From: a virus
Lineage: Duplodnaviria > Caudoviricetes
DNA: 44,335 nt
Direction: 5' to 3' (one strand)
Virus record (IMG/VR): IMGVR_UViG_3300033067_000620
Coordinates: 1 to 44,335 of that record
Part shown: positions 254-44,335 of the stretch, one piece after another
Position numbering within the stretch: position 1 is the first letter of the stretch
Layout: every line of letters begins with the position of its first letter
Translations under genes and position numbers: made by a program
The notes under the pieces: generated by a model
What the model was told of the DNA's origin: nothing
The model's input: only the letters and a program-made list of their open reading frames with translations
Databases searched by the model: none

Positions 254-838
254 ATGCAAAATATAAGTGTTATTGAAAGAGTAATAAAATGGAACGCTAA
301 ACGTTATGATAGAATATATAATCATGACTTGACAGAATCATTACTTTTAGAAGAAGCTAATGAAATTAAAGAAGCTAAAAATATAGTTGACATATTAGAT
401 GGTTGTGGTGATGTTACTTTTGTAGCTATTGGAGCTTTATGGAAATTAGGTTTAAGTCAAAAAGAAATAGAAGCTTTATTTATAGATAAGAATTTAGCTG
501 GTAAAGCCATATGGGAATTAAATGGTATATTTCTTGCTGCATCTGAAGATATACTAGGTAATACTAAATTAAGATTAACTACAAATAAAGCTGTACTACA
601 AGATAGAATTGGTTTAATATTAGGTTATGTATTAGGTGTTTTAACTCAATTAGATAAACTTGATTTACAGCATGAATTTCTTCCTATACTAAAAGCTATA
701 TGTGATAGTAATGATACTAAGGAAGTTAAAGGAAAGACTGACCCTAGTATTAAAGCTAACATAGTTAAAGGTAATCAGTATGTTCCACCTACTGATGATT
801 TAATTAAAATTTGTGAGATGAATGGAAAGGAATACTAA
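254..838 (+). CDS. All-alpha NTP pyrophosphohydrolase (MazG-like / PRA-PH-like)
   Basis: EEANE...DILDGCGDVTFVAIG acidic metal motif plus ICDSNDTK and KGNQYVPP; RBS AGGAG upstream. Confidence 0.75.
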   Translation: MQNISVIERVIKWNAKRYDRIYNHDLTESLLLEEANEIKEAKNIVDILDGCGDVTFVAIGALWKLGLSQKEIEALFIDKNLAGKAIWELNGIFLAASEDILGNTKLRLTTNKAVLQDRIGLILGYVLGVLTQLDKLDLQHEFLPILKAICDSNDTKEVKGKTDPSIKANIVKGNQYVPPTDDLIKICEMNGKEY

Positions 839-1497
839 TGACAAAATGGTTTTCAAAAAATGAAATTCATAAATTGTGTATTGAAGAAGCATCTAAGTCA
901 ACAGCTTTAAAACGTAAAGTGGGTGCTATATTAACTTGTGTTTACGAAGGTGAATATGAGATTTTAGCTAGTGGGTATAATCAGAATTCCATAGGTCCTA
1001 CTTTTGCTTGTGAAGATACAAAAGGTAATACTTTAGATAATGTTATACATGCAGAGCAAAATTGCATAAATAACTTTTTAACCTGTAGACTATTTAAAAC
1101 AGAATATACGTATAAAATGTTTATTACTCATGACCCTTGTCCAGGTTGTTTAGCTGCATTAGTTAAATATGATATTTCTTATGAAGTAGTTGGTGAATTT
1201 ATGAAGTTTGATAAAGCTAAACTTCGTATGTCTCTAGTTCCAGCTTCATTAGCTCAATCTTGTGCTCGTGCTTTACAATATGGAGCTAGGAAATATAAAG
1301 TAGGTAACTGGCGTAAAACTCCAGATATTGAAAGTTATATTTCAGCCATGCAACGTCACTTTGATGCTTGGCGTGAAGGTGAAGAAATTGATAGTGAAAG
1401 TGGTCTAAATCATCTTGACCATATGGCAGCTAATTTAGCTTTTCTAATTGAGCTAAGGGACCTACCTAAAATTAAAGATGAATCAATCAAGTTATAG
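838..1497 (+). CDS. dCMP deaminase-like domain fused to DUF5664 (dATP/dGTP diphosphohydrolase N-terminal-like) domain
   Basis: N-half: KVGA, SGYN, HAE and PCPGC zinc motifs. C-half: KFDKAKLRMSLVP, YGARKY..NWRK, RH..AW..GEEIDSESGLNHLDH. Confidence 0.85.
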   Translation: MTKWFSKNEIHKLCIEEASKSTALKRKVGAILTCVYEGEYEILASGYNQNSIGPTFACEDTKGNTLDNVIHAEQNCINNFLTCRLFKTEYTYKMFITHDPCPGCLAALVKYDISYEVVGEFMKFDKAKLRMSLVPASLAQSCARALQYGARKYKVGNWRKTPDIESYISAMQRHFDAWREGEEIDSESGLNHLDHMAANLAFLIELRDLPKIKDESIKL

Positions 1498-1509: not shown

Positions 1510-2367
1510 ATGAATGAACCAACTAAAAGTATTAGTGACCTACAGCTTAAAAAAGATAAAGTTTTGGCTGTTGATGGAGATACTCTTGCCTATCGTACTG
1601 CTGCAGTGTGTGAAACTCATTTTGAAGGCGCTGCTTATCCAATAATACTTTCTACCTTGAAAGAAATAGTAGCTGAAACAGGTGTAACTAACTTACGTAT
1701 TTATCTTTCTGGTAAATCTAACTTCCGTTATAATTTAGCTAAAACTAAACCTTATAAAGGTAATCGCACTACTATGGTTAAACCACAGTATTTACAATCT
1801 ACTCGTGACCATCTAATAGAAGCATATAATGCTTTTGTTGTGGAGGGTTTTGAAGCTGATGATGCTATAGCTACTGATATGACTGTTAATGGTGCAATTC
1901 ATTGTGGTGTAGATAAAGATATACTTCAAATTCCTGGTTTACATTATAACTATGTAAAGAAAGAATGGATTGAAATAAGTCCTGAAGAAGCTGAACTAAC
2001 TTTATATCGCCAGATTCTGATGGGAGACTCAAGTGACAATATTCCAGGTCTACCAAGAGTAGGTGAAAAGAAAGCTTTTGATGCAATACAATGTGTAGAA
2101 ACTGCTTACGATGATTGCCTAGCTATGTATGAACAAGTTGTGCGTATGTCCTTACCAGGTGTAAATCATTTAGAGTATATGGCAGAACAAATTGGTTTAG
2201 TTAAAATGCGTACAGACGTGCCTTTGATATTTGTTAAACCAACAGATATGTTAGTTAGTACTTGTGTAATGGAATTAGACACAGCTGGTTTTAAAGCACA
2301 AGAAGATGGTTATATTGATACTAATACAAAACAAGAGACAGTAGAAAAACGCTCTCTTAAATTATAG
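1510..2367 (+). CDS. 5'-3' exonuclease / RNase H (FEN family, T7 gp6-like)
   Basis: VDGD, NFR, YKGNR, EADD, DKD and GDSSDNIPGLPRVGEKKA motifs. Confidence 0.92.
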   Translation: MNEPTKSISDLQLKKDKVLAVDGDTLAYRTAAVCETHFEGAAYPIILSTLKEIVAETGVTNLRIYLSGKSNFRYNLAKTKPYKGNRTTMVKPQYLQSTRDHLIEAYNAFVVEGFEADDAIATDMTVNGAIHCGVDKDILQIPGLHYNYVKKEWIEISPEEAELTLYRQILMGDSSDNIPGLPRVGEKKAFDAIQCVETAYDDCLAMYEQVVRMSLPGVNHLEYMAEQIGLVKMRTDVPLIFVKPTDMLVSTCVMELDTAGFKAQEDGYIDTNTKQETVEKRSLKL

Positions 2368-29289: not shown

Positions 29290-29566
29290 TTACTATATTT
29301 TACATTGTTGTATAATATTAGTAAGTTCATTTACATTGCTACATAATATTTATTAAATTTAATACAATACTTTTAAGAGTATTGTATTATAACTGAATAT
29401 TGTATGCAAATTGCGAGCGCCTAGGGCGACATCCTACCCCTGCTGACAAACCAAGTATTAACACTCATTAGTATTCATTACTTACTACTAACTCACTAGT
29501 AAATAGCTAATGTATATCAGCAAATGCTTTACTATTTATTAACCAAATACCTTATTAGTTTTAGAC

Positions 29567-29582
29567 TGTTTCACGTGAAACA
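29567..29582. promoter_or_regulatory. parS: parS centromere site (ParB/Spo0J binding)
   Basis: Exact 16-bp palindrome TGTTTCACGTGAAACA, the canonical chromosomal parS consensus. Confidence 0.88.
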
Positions 29583-29993
29583 TTTTGATAACTAATGGAG
29601 CATTGTTTTACCATTAGCTAAATAAGGTGAAGTGTTTACTTATTAGTTATATATTATATATTTATATAATTATAAAAAGTAATAAATTAATAAATTATAA
29701 ATAACCAACTTAGCATAAGTACTAACAAATTACTAATGCTATATCAGCAAACGTATTATTACTTATTAGCATATAGCCCATACTTATACAGCAAATATAC
29801 TATATAATGATATATATGTCGCATTATATTTATGACAGAGTTTGAACTTTGTAATTTGAGACTTTTTGTAATCGTTGATTTATATTAATATATACTAAGT
29901 AAATAACAGTTCCAAATAACTAGTAATTGGTTAATTATAATATTATATATTAATTAACCATAAATTATACAATTTGCATTAACAATAAAACAC

Positions 29994-30022
29994 TTTACAA
30001 AATAGTAAAACTATAGTATAAT
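29994..30022 (+). promoter_or_regulatory. Sigma70-like early promoter
   Basis: TTTACA-17-TATAAT. Confidence 0.65.
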
Positions 30023-30141
30023 ATTTGCCAAAATCCCACTGTTGTAAATATATCACACCATAAAAATATTTATCAAATAGTATAATAAAGTACTATAGTG
30101 TTATAAATATCGCTAACTAACACTTATTAGCTATAATATCA

Positions 30142-30229
30142 ATTTAAACAGGTGTTATAACAACAATAATACTTTAATGATGAAATATAAGCCATACCTT
30201 CTTTCTTATGTTATAAAGTATGTTTAAAT
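30142..30229. other. Large-loop hairpin
   Basis: ATTTAAACA/TGTTTAAAT and TTATAACA/TGTTATAA nested inverted repeats. Confidence 0.6.
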
Positions 30230-30410
30230 CAATCCGCACACATTCCTTAGATAATTAGTTAACAAAATAATCATTTCTGTAACATTTTTATCACAGTATT
30301 CATTTAGTTATAAAAAGTTGAAAATAAATGTTTACAAAATGTAAAAACTATGATAATCGCGTGCGCATTCTTATAATACTAAAATGAGTAAGGTTTATTA
30401 GTTATTTGTT

Positions 30411-30461
30411 AGTAATAAAGTTGAAAATAATTGTTTACAAAAGAAAAATCTATGACATAAT
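30411..30461 (+). promoter_or_regulatory. Conserved phage promoter
   Basis: AGTAATAAAGTTGAAAATAATTG-TTTACA-16-CATAAT with extended TG; a similar copy lies at about 30312-30357. Confidence 0.7.
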
Positions 30462-30515
30462 GATTATATTGAATGGTTGATTAAATAATAACTTGATGAA
30501 CAGGGAATTACTAAT

Positions 30516-33799: not shown

Positions 33800-34192
33800 A
33801 TGACAAGAATTAATTGCATACCACCTTCTGAATTAATTAATAAACATTTATTAGCTGAATATAGAGAATTACCTCGCATATTTAAATTAGCTCGTAAAGC
33901 AAATGATGCACCAAAGTTATATTGTTTGGGAACAGGTCATATGAAGTTCTTCTTTGATAAACTAATTTATTTAGTTAAGCGACAAGAAGAAATAATTAAA
34001 GAGATGATAAAACGAGGTATGAAGCCTAATTTTAGAGCTGAAGATTTATGGCAATATCATGAAAAAGCTGGTGGTAATTGTGAATCATCTTTATGGAATG
34101 ATTGGATTCCTACTCAAGAAGCAATGAGAATAAACAAAGCAAGAATTGAAGAACGCTTAATAGAAATGAAAGTTAAAAGCCATGCAGTTTGA
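33800..34192 (+). CDS. denV: Pyrimidine dimer DNA glycosylase / endonuclease V
   Basis: MTRIN...EL..KHLLAEYRELPRIF, LGTGHMKFFFDKL; catalytic Thr2 and Glu23 as in T4 DenV. Confidence 0.95.
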   Translation: MTRINCIPPSELINKHLLAEYRELPRIFKLARKANDAPKLYCLGTGHMKFFFDKLIYLVKRQEEIIKEMIKRGMKPNFRAEDLWQYHEKAGGNCESSLWNDWIPTQEAMRINKARIEERLIEMKVKSHAV

Positions 34193-38724: not shown

Positions 38725-38892
38725 ATAAAATAATAAATTTAACTAGTATTTTAGCTGTCATAGACTATTCCATATTAGTTAAATTTATAGGTTTGATTGT
38801 TTTCCTGAGTACTCTACACGAGTTAAACAAAAACAATCACTTATATAGCAAGTGCAGTATAAGTTTTATAAACGTTTATTATGGAGTTTATT

Positions 38893-39561
38893 ATGGCTGA
38901 TTTAGTACCTGTTGTTACCCCGGTTGGAGAATTACACTATGTAAATATCTCTGGTCAAGGCAAACAGAACTATAATGAAGATGGTTACAATTATGTAGCT
39001 ACTATTAACTTAACTGGTAAAGACGCTGAAGACCTGAAAGAGGAAATTGACGAAGTTATTGGTGAAGTTGCTAAAGGTGAAAATCTTAAATCTAGAGGTT
39101 ATCGTGAACTAATGGAAGATGAGAAAGGTATTTATACTCCTACTCAGAATACAAAAGAACGTGATGCTAGTGCTAAGGCAACTGGAATTTATGCTTTTAG
39201 TTTTTCTACTGCTACTACTTTTGCAGATGGTAAAACTAAAAAGATTTCAGTATACAATTCTGCTAATCCTCCTAGCCGCATTAATCTTGGTGACAAGAAA
39301 ATCGGTAATGGTTCTAAAGGATGTATATCTGGTAAAATGCAACGGTATAAAAAGGGTAAGGATGTAGGCATTAGCTTATTTCTTAACGCTGTACAACTTG
39401 TTGACTTTAAAGAGTACGTTGATGATGCAGGATTTGCTGCTCAAGATGGTGGATTTGTTGGTGACGGAGACGGCTTTAATCCTAGTACTGCCGAAGCTGA
39501 AGTTGACAAAAAAGAAGCTGTAGCTAAGGTTGGGCAACCTAAAAAGAAGCTTAAACTTTAA
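38893..39561 (+). CDS. ssb: Single-stranded DNA-binding protein (T7 gp2.5 / DUF2815-like)
   Basis: TPVGEL.Y, IGNGSKG, GISLFLNAVQLVD..EY and acidic tail; likely start MADL after GGAG. Confidence 0.85.
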   Translation: MADLVPVVTPVGELHYVNISGQGKQNYNEDGYNYVATINLTGKDAEDLKEEIDEVIGEVAKGENLKSRGYRELMEDEKGIYTPTQNTKERDASAKATGIYAFSFSTATTFADGKTKKISVYNSANPPSRINLGDKKIGNGSKGCISGKMQRYKKGKDVGISLFLNAVQLVDFKEYVDDAGFAAQDGGFVGDGDGFNPSTAEAEVDKKEAVAKVGQPKKKLKL

Positions 39562-40779: not shown

Positions 40780-41340
40780 ATGGTTGATACTTTTTATGGA
40801 ACAAAAAAAGTCATAGCTGCATCTATGACTAGAGCACAATATAATAAATATCGTGGTTGGGATTTACCTAAAGATGAAAATGGCGCCGATGAAGGCTATT
40901 TAGTTGAGTACATGGATGGTGGAAAGCCAAATATGAAAGAACATGAAGGATATGTTAGTTGGTCTCCTAAGGAGCAATTTGAAAAAGCTTACCAAAGTGC
41001 AACTTTTGACTCATTATCTTTTAGTCATGCTTTATTTGCTCTTAAAGAAGGTAAAGCAGTAGCTCGTTCTGGTTGGAATGGTAAAGGTATGTATATCTAT
41101 CTAGTTCCAGCAAATAGTTATCCTGCACAAACAAAAGTAGCAATTGACTATTGGAGTAAGCAACCAAATGTAGAATTTAAAACTCATTATGGTGATAGTC
41201 TTGCAGGTATACCAGACCAACAAATTCCTCTTGTACCTTATGGAGCCTATCTAGCTATGAAAACTGCTCAAGGTAATGTTGTACCTTGGTTAGCTTCACA
41301 AACAGATATAATTGCTGATGATTGGGCTGTTGTAAATTAA
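40780..41340 (+). CDS. SWSPK-domain protein fused to DUF2829 / Tad2-like domain
   Basis: N-terminal EGYLVEY.DG...YVSWSPKEQFEKAY; C-terminal FSHALFALKEGKAVARSGWNGKGM...VPWLASQTDIIADDW. Confidence 0.85.
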   Translation: MVDTFYGTKKVIAASMTRAQYNKYRGWDLPKDENGADEGYLVEYMDGGKPNMKEHEGYVSWSPKEQFEKAYQSATFDSLSFSHALFALKEGKAVARSGWNGKGMYIYLVPANSYPAQTKVAIDYWSKQPNVEFKTHYGDSLAGIPDQQIPLVPYGAYLAMKTAQGNVVPWLASQTDIIADDWAVVN

Positions 41341-41622: not shown

Positions 41623-43296
41623 ATGTATTCTAAATTAACTTTACCTGATGTAGTAAAATTAGTAGACCATAGTAAACCATTAATGTTTGACACTGAAACA
41701 ATTGGTTTATATGGTAAAATACGTCTAGCTCAATTTTATCAAACTGGTTGGGAATTACCTATATTAGTTGAATATCCTAACCCTTATGAATTAGTTTCTT
41801 TATTATCAAAACAACATGTAATAATGCACAATGCTCATTATGATATAACTACAATACAAGAAAATATAGGTGGACAAGTTTGGATGCCTGAAAAGTTTGA
41901 CTGCACATTTTTATTATCTCGTTTGCATTATTTTTTACGTGAAAGCTTTAGTTTAGATTCAGTTGTAACTTATACATTAGGTTTTAATCCTTATGAAGGT
42001 ACAGATTTACAAAAGTCTGACTGGGGTGCAATAATATTATCAGAAGAGCAGTTAGAATACGCAGCAAAAGACGTAGTATATTTACAAGCTGTTTATGATG
42101 CAGTTAAAAAAGCAGAAGATGACAATAGCTATAAATTAGATATGCTATGTTTGCGTTACTGCTTAGATTTTCAAAATAATGGTATGCCTATAGATACTAT
42201 TAGGCTTGAAGATAGATATGCAACTAACACAAAAAGAATTAAAGAAATAGGTTTAACTATTAATGTTAATAGTTATCAACAAGTTAGACCTTATATTGGC
42301 TCTATAATGTCAGATGACTTAGGCTTAGCTAGATTAGCAGGTCAAGGAAATGAAAAAGCTGTTAATGTTCGTGAAACTAGGAAACTAATTAAGAATAACT
42401 CTTTTTTAACTAAGTTTCAAAATACTATGGTTGATGCAGGTCCTTACCATGTTATTAAAGGTAAGTTTAAAGTATCTGCACGCTCAGGTAGAACTACTTC
42501 AGATGACCAGAATCTTCAACAGTTACCTCGTAATCTAAAGTCTATATTTGGTTTACCAATGGATGGTGAAGAAGTAATTATATTTTCCGATTTTGCTCAA
42601 ATACAGTTACGTTGTGTTTGTGTTAAAACTGGTGATAAAACTATGGAGAAGTTATTTAGAGCTTTTGAAGATTTACATAACTTCGTAGCTAAAATGATAT
42701 TCGGTGAAAACTTTACAGAAGAGCAAAGACAAATATGTAAGACTGCAAACTTTGGTTTATTATTTGGTGCTGGTGTAGAGGTATTTATTAACATACTTTT
42801 AAAACAAGCTGGACTGTGGTTATCTATTGAAGCTGCTGAAAAAGTTAAAAGAAAATGGTCTAGCTTATGGACTGAAATAACTAATTGGCAGAAACAAGGT
42901 ATTAAAGATTGGAAAAAAGGTTTACCTTGGGAAACACCATTAGGTCGTCGTTATGTATCTAAAATGATGACTGACCAATTAGCTATGCAAATTCAAGGCT
43001 TTGAAGCTGAAGTAGCTAAGTTAGCTATGCACTATATGTTACCTAGATTAAAGTTCCTAGATGAGAGAATAAAACTAGTTAACTTTGTACATGACAGTTA
43101 TATATTTATTGGTCCTAACGAAGAAAATATATATAAAGAAGCTTCTATGATAATAGCTACTGCAATGCAAGAAGCTTGGGCTGAAATGTGTACAGAAGTT
43201 ACTATCAAAGACTTACCTATGCCTGTTAAAGTAAGGGTAGGTTGGAATTGGGGTGATATTGAAAAAGGTAAATTTATTTATGAACATATTCAGTAG
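41623..43296 (+). CDS. polA: DNA polymerase family A with 3'-5' exonuclease domain
   Basis: FDTET (ExoI), HNAHYD (ExoII), YAAKD (ExoII I), SGR, NLQQLP, DFAQIQLR (A), KTANFGLLFG (B), VHDS (C). Confidence 0.95.
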   Translation: MYSKLTLPDVVKLVDHSKPLMFDTETIGLYGKIRLAQFYQTGWELPILVEYPNPYELVSLLSKQHVIMHNAHYDITTIQENIGGQVWMPEKFDCTFLLSRLHYFLRESFSLDSVVTYTLGFNPYEGTDLQKSDWGAIILSEEQLEYAAKDVVYLQAVYDAVKKAEDDNSYKLDMLCLRYCLDFQNNGMPIDTIRLEDRYATNTKRIKEIGLTINVNSYQQVRPYIGSIMSDDLGLARLAGQGNEKAVNVRETRKLIKNNSFLTKFQNTMVDAGPYHVIKGKFKVSARSGRTTSDDQNLQQLPRNLKSIFGLPMDGEEVIIFSDFAQIQLRCVCVKTGDKTMEKLFRAFEDLHNFVAKMIFGENFTEEQRQICKTANFGLLFGAGVEVFINILLKQAGLWLSIEAAEKVKRKWSSLWTEITNWQKQGIKDWKKGLPWETPLGRRYVSKMMTDQLAMQIQGFEAEVAKLAMHYMLPRLKFLDERIKLVNFVHDSYIFIGPNEENIYKEASMIIATAMQEAWAEMCTEVTIKDLPMPVKVRVGWNWGDIEKGKFIYEHIQ

Positions 43297-43766: not shown

Positions 43767-44335
43767 ATGAAATTAGCTAACTGGGAAATAAGCCAATATG
43801 TGCCATTAATACAAAAGATTATGGCTAAAGGTGAAGCTCGTGAAACTCGCGCAGGTAAAGCCTATTCTTTATTTGGTGAAACATTAGATATAGATACTCA
43901 AGATTTTCCATTACTACGTGGTCGTAAAATGTATTATAAATCTGTATTAGGTGAATTAGCTGCAATGTTACGTGGCGCCAAAACAGTACAAGAATTTCAA
44001 GAATTTGGTTGTAATTATTGGAATGACTGGGGTGATAAAGAAGGTAATCTAATATTAGATTATGGTACTTCTTGGATAGATTTTAATGGTGTAAATCAGC
44101 TACAACAGTTAGTTGATACACTTAAAACTAATCCTAATGATAGGCGTATGATTATATCAGGTTGGCGCCCAGATAGGCTTAAAGATTTATCATTGCCTTG
44201 CTGCCATTTACTATATCAATGGTATTTAAGAGAAGGTAAATATTTAGATATGATTTGGTACCAGCGTAGTGTTGATGTTATGATTGGTTTACCTAGTGAT
44301 ATAATATTTGCAGCTATGTGGAATAAACTATTAGC
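43767..44335 (+). CDS. Thymidylate synthase-family protein, dCMP-type (N-terminal 189 codons; runs off window; not in ORF track)
   Basis: My translation: MKLANWE...FPLLRGRK..YKSVLGEL...NYWNDW...DYG..W...NQL...LKTNPNDRRMIISGW...LPCCHLLYQW...YQRSVDVMIGLPSDII. Confidence 0.92.
   Translation, partial: MKLANWEISQYVPLIQKIMAKGEARETRAGKAYSLFGETLDIDTQDFPLLRGRKMYYKSVLGELAAMLRGAKTVQEFQEFGCNYWNDWGDKEGNLILDYGTSWIDFNGVNQLQQLVDTLKTNPNDRRMIISGWRPDRLKDLSLPCCHLLYQWYLREGKYLDMIWYQRSVDVMIGLPSDIIFAAMWNKLL

What the first reader, a model, noticed from the sequence alone, without database searches (positions are those of the whole stretch)
42586..43020. PolA with steric-gate Glu replaced by Gln and partner Tyr replaced by Phe
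Motif A is DFAQIQLR (CAG at 42604-42606) instead of DYSQIELR. The replaced Glu (Klenow E710) is the sugar steric gate of family A polymerases. Motif B ends GLLFG (TTT at 42763-42765) instead of GLIYG, and Y766 normally hydrogen-bonds to E710, so the two changes look co-adapted. The N845 region is also altered (TDQLAMQIQG). Inference: changed nucleotide selectivity or fidelity, possibly tied to the neighbouring nucleotide pathway.
Basis: partly seen in the sequence, partly recalled or inferred. Interest (0 to 1): 0.7.

Follow-up and report, generated by a model that had tools for sequence, protein, structure and literature searches.

The report
Phage polymerase with relocated gate glutamate
This phage's DNA polymerase has glutamine where nearly all relatives keep the glutamate that screens out RNA building blocks, and it has gained a glutamate at a second site; the same swap recurs in many unrelated phage and bacterial polymerases, so it is likely a working alternative pocket that still makes ordinary DNA.

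Summary
Observation confirmed. The phage's only family A polymerase (41623-43296) has Gln, Phe and Ala at Klenow positions 710, 766 and 845. All four are fixed in an 82-member clade; cultured relatives (PH1, KF-1 group, VPMS1) are canonical.

Across 212 phage and bacterial PolA regions, 49 lack an acid at 710 and all 49 have Asp/Glu at 852; 161 have it only at 710, 2 at both. Two single-MAG exceptions were left out; their relatives keep Glu710. The link holds in 7 of 7 independent pairs (p 0.016). Phe766 is not obligatory: Patescibacteria-type Pol I has Gln710/Tyr766/Glu852. A cultured Flavobacterium phage has His710/Glu852.

The Asp-type thymidylate synthase is family-wide (8 of 8 Gln-type, 45 of 46 Glu-type), so no link to it is supported.

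Best reading (0.7): the pocket's negative charge has moved, Gln keeps the steric block, and the enzyme stays a proofreading dNTP polymerase. The geometry is inferred and no kinetics exist. The scan noted Gln/Phe and His-type gates before on other DNA. I found no paper on the 710/852 rule.

The parts
41623..43296 (+). Family A DNA polymerase, 557 aa, 3'-5' exonuclease plus polymerase domain; nearest solved relatives are the Aquifex and apicoplast enzymes; only DNA_pol_A gene seen in this 44-kb phage record
   Evidence: Pfam PF01612 + PF00476, PHROG 17, PDB 8JRB best by sequence and Foldseek, AlphaFold pLDDT 93.8
41689..41697 (+). Exo I motif D23-T-E25; with D74, Y146 and D150 the proofreading site is complete in sequence
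   Evidence: = E. coli D355, E357, D424, Y497, D501
42490..42492 (+). R290 = Klenow R668, unchanged; inferred charge partner of the pocket carboxylate
   Evidence: 127 of 127; mapping
42589..42612 (+). Motif A DFAQIQLR; catalytic D323 intact, Q328 (CAG 42604-42606) at the steric-gate position E710
42727..42768 (+). Motif B; R369, K373, F377 (=F762) intact; F381 (TTT 42763-42765) at Y766
42982..42984 (+). A454 at Klenow N845 (clade-specific, not obligatory elsewhere)
42994..42996 (+). Q458 = Klenow Q849, unchanged
43003..43005 (+). E461 at Klenow A852: the gained carboxylate, i+7 from position 845 and i+3 from 849 on one predicted helix (449-479)
43090..43095 (+). Motif C H490-D491 intact

Best explanation
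This polymerase has Gln at the steric-gate position 710 and a new Glu at position 852, and the new Glu likely takes over the negative charge of the pocket floor, so that the enzyme would remain a proofreading, dNTP-selective replicase. Shown: the four substitutions, their fixation in a clade, and the repeated pairing of 'no acid at 710' with 'acid at 852'. Inferred: Gln, being the same size as Glu, still blocks the ribose 2'-OH; Glu461 points into the pocket from the N845/Q849 helix and restores the contact with Arg668 and the minor-groove network; Tyr-to-Phe and Asn-to-Ala are secondary adjustments that make room. Likely path: the acid at 852 came first (double-acid forms exist), after which 710 was free to become Gln or His.
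For: (1) 82 of 82 Gln-type homologs have Glu852; 0 of 45 Glu-type do. (2) Among 150 distant representatives, the 5 without Glu710 (3 Gln, 2 His) all have Asp/Glu852 and 0 of 131 readable Glu710 ones do. (3) IMG/VR pattern scans: 27 of 27 Gln/His polymerase clusters have an acid at 852 against 0 of 84 readable control clusters. (4) Combined tree of 212 rows with the trait columns removed: 161 acid at 710 only, 49 at 852 only, 2 both, 0 neither; 17 changes; 7 of 7 independent pairs on supported branches, p 0.0156. (5) 13 of 15 PolA hits in bacterial and archaeal genome contigs have Glu852, among them 5'-nuclease-bearing Pol I of Patescibacteria-group MAGs. In the 3 such genomes tested it is the only PF00476 match. 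(6) Cultured Flavobacterium phage immuto_2-6A has His710/Tyr766/Glu852 in a replication operon. (7) Klenow E710Q alone binds the correct dNTP about 280-fold worse (Kd2 230 vs 0.83 uM) but does not close more on rUTP (K2 0.056 vs 0.083 wild type; E710A 0.16), and Y766F is near wild type (PMC3715850 Table 1): size keeps the gate, charge is what is lost. (8) Bst Q797, R615 and E658 lie close and interact electrostatically (PMC10520511). Residues 454, 458 and 461 fall at 0, 40 and 340 degrees of one helix. (9) Evolved Taq SFM4 mutants pair E615G with I614E (PMC9533422), a laboratory case of a shifted carboxylate.
Against: No kinetics exist for any such enzyme in what I read. Two MAG Pol I sequences (L495, L500) have Gln710 and no acid at 852; I left them out of the 212-row count because 6 of 6 and 8 of 8 relatives read keep Glu710, but I did not prove them errors. 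Two rows have both acids, so the rule is 'at least one', not a strict swap. E710Q and N845A are each mutators in Klenow (PMC3715850; PMC10520511). The trees are FastTree on short regions with long branches; only 7 of 17 changes give supported pairs. The scans needed K..N[FY] and a Gln/His codon and returned only samples, so other 710 residues were not surveyed. The gained 5'-3' exonuclease in the clade could hint at more ribonucleotide handling.
Confidence: 0.7

Rival explanations
1. The pocket works but at lower base-pair fidelity, with errors cleaned up by the intact proofreading domain.
For: E710Q, E710A and N845A lower fidelity in Klenow (PMC3715850; PMC10520511). Root-to-tip length in the polymerase tree is 0.97 for 82 Gln tips against 0.79 for 54 Glu tips. 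SSB shows more unique changes in Gln genomes (21-35 vs 9-22).
Against: Relative-rate counts against the sister locus L020 show no excess in primase-helicase (50-70 vs 53-67), TS (19-28 vs 13-33) or the polymerase (45-65 vs 61-74). The root-to-tip gap may come from denser sampling. Protein rates are a weak proxy for mutation rate.
Confidence: 0.13
2. The pocket has relaxed or changed sugar selectivity and accepts rNTPs or 2'-modified nucleotides.
For: Position 710 is the steric gate (PMC3715850). 7 of 7 Gln-type loci with a nuclease in view have a FEN-type 5'-3' exonuclease where 38 of 40 Glu-type loci have a PD-(D/E)XK nuclease.
Against: Gln is as bulky as Glu, and E710Q does not favour closing on rUTP. 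Phe762, needed for the gate to be fully effective (PMC13697223), is intact. The nuclease swap is one event in one clade and also occurs with Glu710 (L028, L468; L465, L466). The same swap occurs in bacterial Pol I. No sugar-modifying enzyme was named in Pfam or PHROG scans.
Confidence: 0.12
3. The pocket is tuned to a modified base made by the neighbouring Asp-type TS, dCMP deaminase and dATP/dGTP diphosphohydrolase genes.
For: The TS has Asp where dUMP-using enzymes have Asn, the state of cytosine-using enzymes (PMC5175136). Both DpoZ clades have Phe at 766 (PMC8599892, PMC10201439), and a dGTP_diPhyd_N domain is present.
Against: Asp-type TS is in 45 of 46 Glu-type relatives read, and the diphosphohydrolase domain in 19 of 64. 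No PurZ was named among the ORFs scanned. The swap recurs in unrelated phages and bacteria.
Confidence: 0.04
4. The gene is decaying or the codon is an error.
For: A supposedly invariant residue is changed.
Against: 82 homologs at about 55-100% identity, both Gln codons, intact catalytic residues, one clade in four gene trees.
Confidence: 0.01

Closest known systems
Aquificae-like / apicoplast PolA ('Hot Spring 1', cd08639; PDB 8JRB, 5DKU, 9QSC; cluster 8 of PMC10201439)
   Same: Compact exo + pol layout, Phe762; best match by sequence (E 4e-35) and by Foldseek
   Different: Only 22-27% identity; 8JRB and 5DKU keep Glu710, Tyr766, Asn845 and a small residue at 852 (alignments)
PolA of cultured relatives: Pseudoalteromonas phage PH1, Kafunavirus KF-1/IW-1, Dickeya phage Amaethon, Vibrio phage VPMS1
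   Same: 44-51% identity and the same replication module, including Asp-type TS
   Different: The four records read (PH1, IW-1, Amaethon, VPMS1) have Glu710/Tyr766/Asn845/small 852 and a PD-(D/E)XK nuclease in place of the 5'-3' exonuclease
Engineered Klenow E710Q, Y766F, N845A
   Same: The same single substitutions
   Different: Studied singly and without the acid at 852; E710Q alone is slow and error-prone (PMC3715850)
DpoZ polymerases (phiVC8-like, Wayne-like)
   Same: Natural Phe at 766 (PMC8599892, PMC10201439)
   Different: No change at the gate Glu is reported in the passages read; no PurZ seen here
Flavobacterium phage vB_FspM_immuto_2-6A PolA (MW353175)
   Same: No Glu710, Glu at 852
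   Different: His rather than Gln, Tyr766 and Asn845 kept, unrelated 441-aa lineage; annotated only as DNA polymerase family A

Membership tests
Family A DNA polymerase | Pfam DNA_pol_A over cut-off and Klenow fold | tested here: met
   115 bits vs cut-off 34.3; VIA-align Z 30.9 to 1D9D, rmsd 4.1, 517 aligned
Family A DNA polymerase | Catalytic Asp of motifs A and C, Arg/Lys of motif B, Arg668, Gln849 | tested here: met
Family A DNA polymerase | Glu710-Tyr766 pair described as universally conserved (PMC3715850) | tested here: not met
   Gln328/Phe381; it works like a PolA but is a variant at this feature
Family A DNA polymerase | dNTP-over-rNTP discrimination and template-directed synthesis | not testable with these tools
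   needs kinetics
Proofreading (DEDDy) PolA | Exo I D-x-E, Exo II Asp, Exo III Y-x3-D | tested here: met
   D23, E25, D74, Y146, D150
[quoted passage not shown] | Groups with Aquificae and apicoplast PolA | tested here: inconclusive
   Best PDB hits but low identity; the Aquificae virus enzyme lies in a neighbouring clade; no CDD test available
DpoZ | Phe at 766 | tested here: met
DpoZ | PurZ gene in the genome | tested here: not met
   none named in Pfam (29 proteins) or PHROG (52 proteins) scans of the window's ORFs

The most novel reading that the evidence does not exclude
Moving the carboxylate to position 852 uncouples charge from steric gating, and this lineage uses that freedom to accept ribo- or 2'-modified nucleotides, with its newly acquired 5'-3' exonuclease handling the products: a natural family A replicase with a widened sugar range and a ready scaffold for XNA enzymes.
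Probability: 0.12. Interest if true: 0.85.

Novelty: new variant of a known kind. Interest (0 to 1): 0.6.

Why it matters
The gate Glu of Pol I enzymes is called universally conserved, and it does two jobs that single mutants cannot separate well: blocking the ribose 2'-OH and supplying a charge. Nature has dropped it many times, each time with an acid at 852, in phages and in bacterial Pol I. That gives a direct test: add the 852 Glu to Klenow E710Q and see whether activity returns with the gate intact. If it does, position 710 becomes freely changeable, which matters for engineering polymerases for 2'-modified substrates, where gate mutants usually lose activity. It also warns annotators that a missing motif A Glu does not mean a dead polymerase.

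Tried and rejected
Link to Asp-type TS, dCMP deaminase or diphosphohydrolase: rejected, family-wide.

Phe766 or Ala845 as the obligatory partner: rejected; pair tests not significant (3.5 of 5 and 2.4 of 7 pairs).

Z-genome reading: no PurZ named.

Genome-wide faster protein evolution: not seen except SSB.

Parallel with T7 RNA polymerase (Gly542 at the gate; Asp787 as a possible 852 equivalent, a recalled register): not supported. hhalign matched only motif C at probability 0.3, and an ungapped profile preferred the register that puts Gly788 at 852, with non-significant scores. Left open.

The search for related loci with the single protein found nothing in viral contigs; the alignment did. 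No cultured phage close to the 666-aa Gln/Phe/Glu group was found (best hits 22-27%). The pair test counted Asp710 as loss of the acid and was replaced. The 6-mer part failed and was not repeated.

Two primary papers (Minnick 2002 PNAS, Astatke 1998 PNAS) were not held, so their content is known to me only through reviews and recall. Supplements were not read; Supplementary Table S2 of PMC3715850 (kinetics) and the motif logos in Figure 3 of PMC10201439 may bear on the claims.

Full report
The window and the gene. The window is a whole 44,335-base virus record with portal, major head, terminase and DNA-ejection genes and one replication module. ORF 41623-43296 encodes a 557-aa exonuclease-plus-polymerase protein. 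Its closest cultured relatives are Pseudoalteromonas phage PH1, the Kafunavirus phages, Amaethon and VPMS1 at 44-51% identity. Its closest solved structures are the Aquifex and apicoplast enzymes. The AlphaFold model has mean pLDDT 93.8 and a Klenow fold (Z 30.9, rmsd 4.1, 517 aligned).

Observation. All catalytic and proofreading residues are intact.

The clade. Of 127 sequences (the best 120 of 736 homologs, query included, plus 7 phage records) 82 have Gln710; the same 82 have Ala845 and Glu852, and 83 have Phe766. The Gln type forms one clade in trees of the polymerase, primase-helicase, TS and, weakly, SSB. It uses both Gln codons. It is a stable inherited state.

Repeated origins. A profile search gave 150 representatives at 50% identity. 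Five lack Glu710 (three Gln, two His) and all five have Glu or Asp at 852; none of 131 readable Glu710 proteins does. With the main clade they fall at five separate places in a 283-tip tree. I then scanned IMG/VR with a motif A plus motif B pattern for Gln or His at 710 (240 loci of an estimated 720) and, as control, for Glu (120 of about 860). I kept in-frame hits with over 150 residues downstream (210 and 107), clustered them at 70% and dropped L076, which is not a polymerase. Result: 18 of 18 Gln clusters have Phe766 and Glu852, 9 of 9 His clusters have Tyr766 and Asp/Glu852, and 0 of 84 readable Glu clusters have an acid at 852; 2 were gapped. These include unrelated lineages: an abundant 441-aa His type and a roughly 680-aa Gln type. 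The 441-aa type has a cultured member, Flavobacterium phage immuto_2-6A, with His710, Tyr766 and Glu852, next to SSB, 5'-3' exonuclease and DnaB genes.

Cells. A similar scan of GTDB contigs gave 16 matches, 15 of them PolA; 13 have Glu852. Five are Gln/Phe, six Gln/Tyr and two His/Tyr. The Tyr-keeping ones are Pol I genes of MAGs mostly titled Parcubacteria, Paceibacterota, Liptonbacteria, Azambacteria or Patescibacteria; several show the N-terminal 5'-nuclease. In the three such genomes tested it is the only PF00476 match. Two hits, L495 and L500, have Gln710 with no acid at 852. Their relatives keep Glu710 (6 of 6 read and 8 of 8), so they look like errors or private mutations, but this is unproven. 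In an even sample from the class and phylum of G003 (55 of 59 loci read) there are 2 Gln710/Glu852, 2 Glu710/Glu852, 6 Asp710 with a small 852 and 6 Glu710/Gln852; the rest are canonical. The double-acid forms suggest the order of events: gain at 852, then loss at 710.

Statistics. On a FastTree of 212 regions with the four trait columns removed and L495 and L500 left out, 161 rows have the acid only at 710, 49 only at 852, 2 at both and none at neither. There are 17 changes of state; 7 independent pairs lie on supported branches and all 7 go the same way (p 0.0156; same result on 144 rows). Gln710 versus Phe766 (29 both, 7 Gln with Tyr, 8 Phe without Gln) and loss of the acid versus change of Asn845 (14 of 49) are not significant.

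Mechanism. Passages and the Discussion (part 1) of PMC3715850 call E710 and Y766 universally conserved, report that their hydrogen bond matters little, and show Y766F near wild type. Its Table 1 shows E710Q with weak binding of the correct dNTP (Kd2 230 vs 0.83 uM) but no gain in closing on rUTP (K2 0.056; wild type 0.083; E710A 0.16). So Gln appears to keep the steric block while the lost charge costs activity (my inference). Passages of PMC10520511 place the Bst equivalents of Q849, R668 and E710 close together in an electrostatic network. PMC7155079 (passages) has the Taq equivalents of N845, Q849 and E710 sharing water-mediated contacts with the incoming base. In the model, residues 449-479 are one helix and 454, 458 and 461 lie within 60 degrees on an ideal wheel. 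I infer that Glu461 faces the same pocket and replaces the charge, with Phe381 and Ala454 making room. No coordinates were available to measure this. Evolved Taq mutants pair E615G with I614E (table passage, PMC9533422), which fits a need for a nearby carboxylate.

Context. The TS next door has Asp at the Asn position (PMC5175136 passage), but so do 45 of 46 Glu-type relatives read among 73 de-duplicated loci, including four cultured phages. DpoZ enzymes have Phe766 (passages of PMC8599892 and PMC10201439), but no PurZ was named here. The one contextual difference is a FEN-type 5'-3' exonuclease (1510-2367) in 7 of 7 Gln-type loci, against 2 of 40 Glu-type. This is a single clade, so it carries little weight, though it keeps the ribonucleotide reading alive. 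Relative-rate counts show no general acceleration.

Literature and earlier notes. Searches of the open-licence library found no report of natural Gln/His710 enzymes or of position 852. In PMC10201439, PMC13697223 and PMC12926913 I read term-matched passages only; PMC4882331, PMC11617373 and PMC4551944 likewise. Subscription journals were not searched. The scan's own notes list one Gln/Phe case and seven His cases on other genomes, several with 'four linked changes'; I had the 852 result before reading them and could not see whether theirs is the same site. Searches returned nothing.

Verdict. Real and conserved; a new variant of a known enzyme. Most likely a relocated carboxylate with ordinary substrate choice (0.7), not an adaptation to the neighbouring pathway. 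Interest 0.6, because a residue held to be invariant follows a simple, testable either-or rule across phages and bacteria.

Noticed in passing
window 43767-44335 continuing at 1-244: Thymidylate synthase split by the contig ends; Asp at the dUMP-specific Asn position, as in almost the whole phage family. With the dCMP deaminase it could make 5-methyl-dCMP or reach dTMP that way; untested.
   Followed up: partly
window 838-1497: dCMP deaminase fused to a dATP/dGTP diphosphohydrolase N-terminal domain, preceded by a nucleotide pyrophosphohydrolase (254-838); no PurZ named in the genome.
   Followed up: partly
window 1510-2367: FEN-type 5'-3' exonuclease sits where most Glu-type relatives have a PD-(D/E)XK nuclease (7 of 7 vs 2 of 40).
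   Followed up: partly
window 40780-41340: Tad2-like (Thoeris anti-defence) domain protein, Pfam PF11195, E 1e-24.
   Followed up: no
window 33800-34192: Pyrimidine dimer DNA glycosylase (DenV-like), patchy among relatives.
   Followed up: no
whole window: GATC strongly avoided (8 found, 83 expected) and CpG depleted (ratio 0.52).
   Followed up: no
L509 1-1326 (MW353175) and 167 loci clustered with L090: Very abundant, short (about 441 aa) and divergent PolA type with His710, Glu852 and Tyr-Asp in motif C; it has a cultured representative, so it is the easiest experimental handle.
   Followed up: partly
L087, L181, L100: His710 with Asp852 and Ile or Leu in place of Gln849.
   Followed up: no
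L526, L529, L532, L557, L563, L580; L579, L581: Bacterial Pol I with Asp at the gate (six) and with acids at both 710 and 852 (two).
   Followed up: partly
P0244, P0246, P0254, P0259, P0260, P0267, P0269, P0270: Glu710 kept, Phe766, and bulky Ile/Val at 852: hints that residue 852 lies near the Tyr766 hydroxyl; all within one clade of the tree.
   Followed up: no
window 38881-39561: SSB shows more lineage-specific changes in Gln-type phages than in the sister locus, unlike three other genes.
   Followed up: no
window 29290-30515: About 1.2 kb with no ORF of 60 aa or more, between the terminase region and the early genes; not examined.
   Followed up: no
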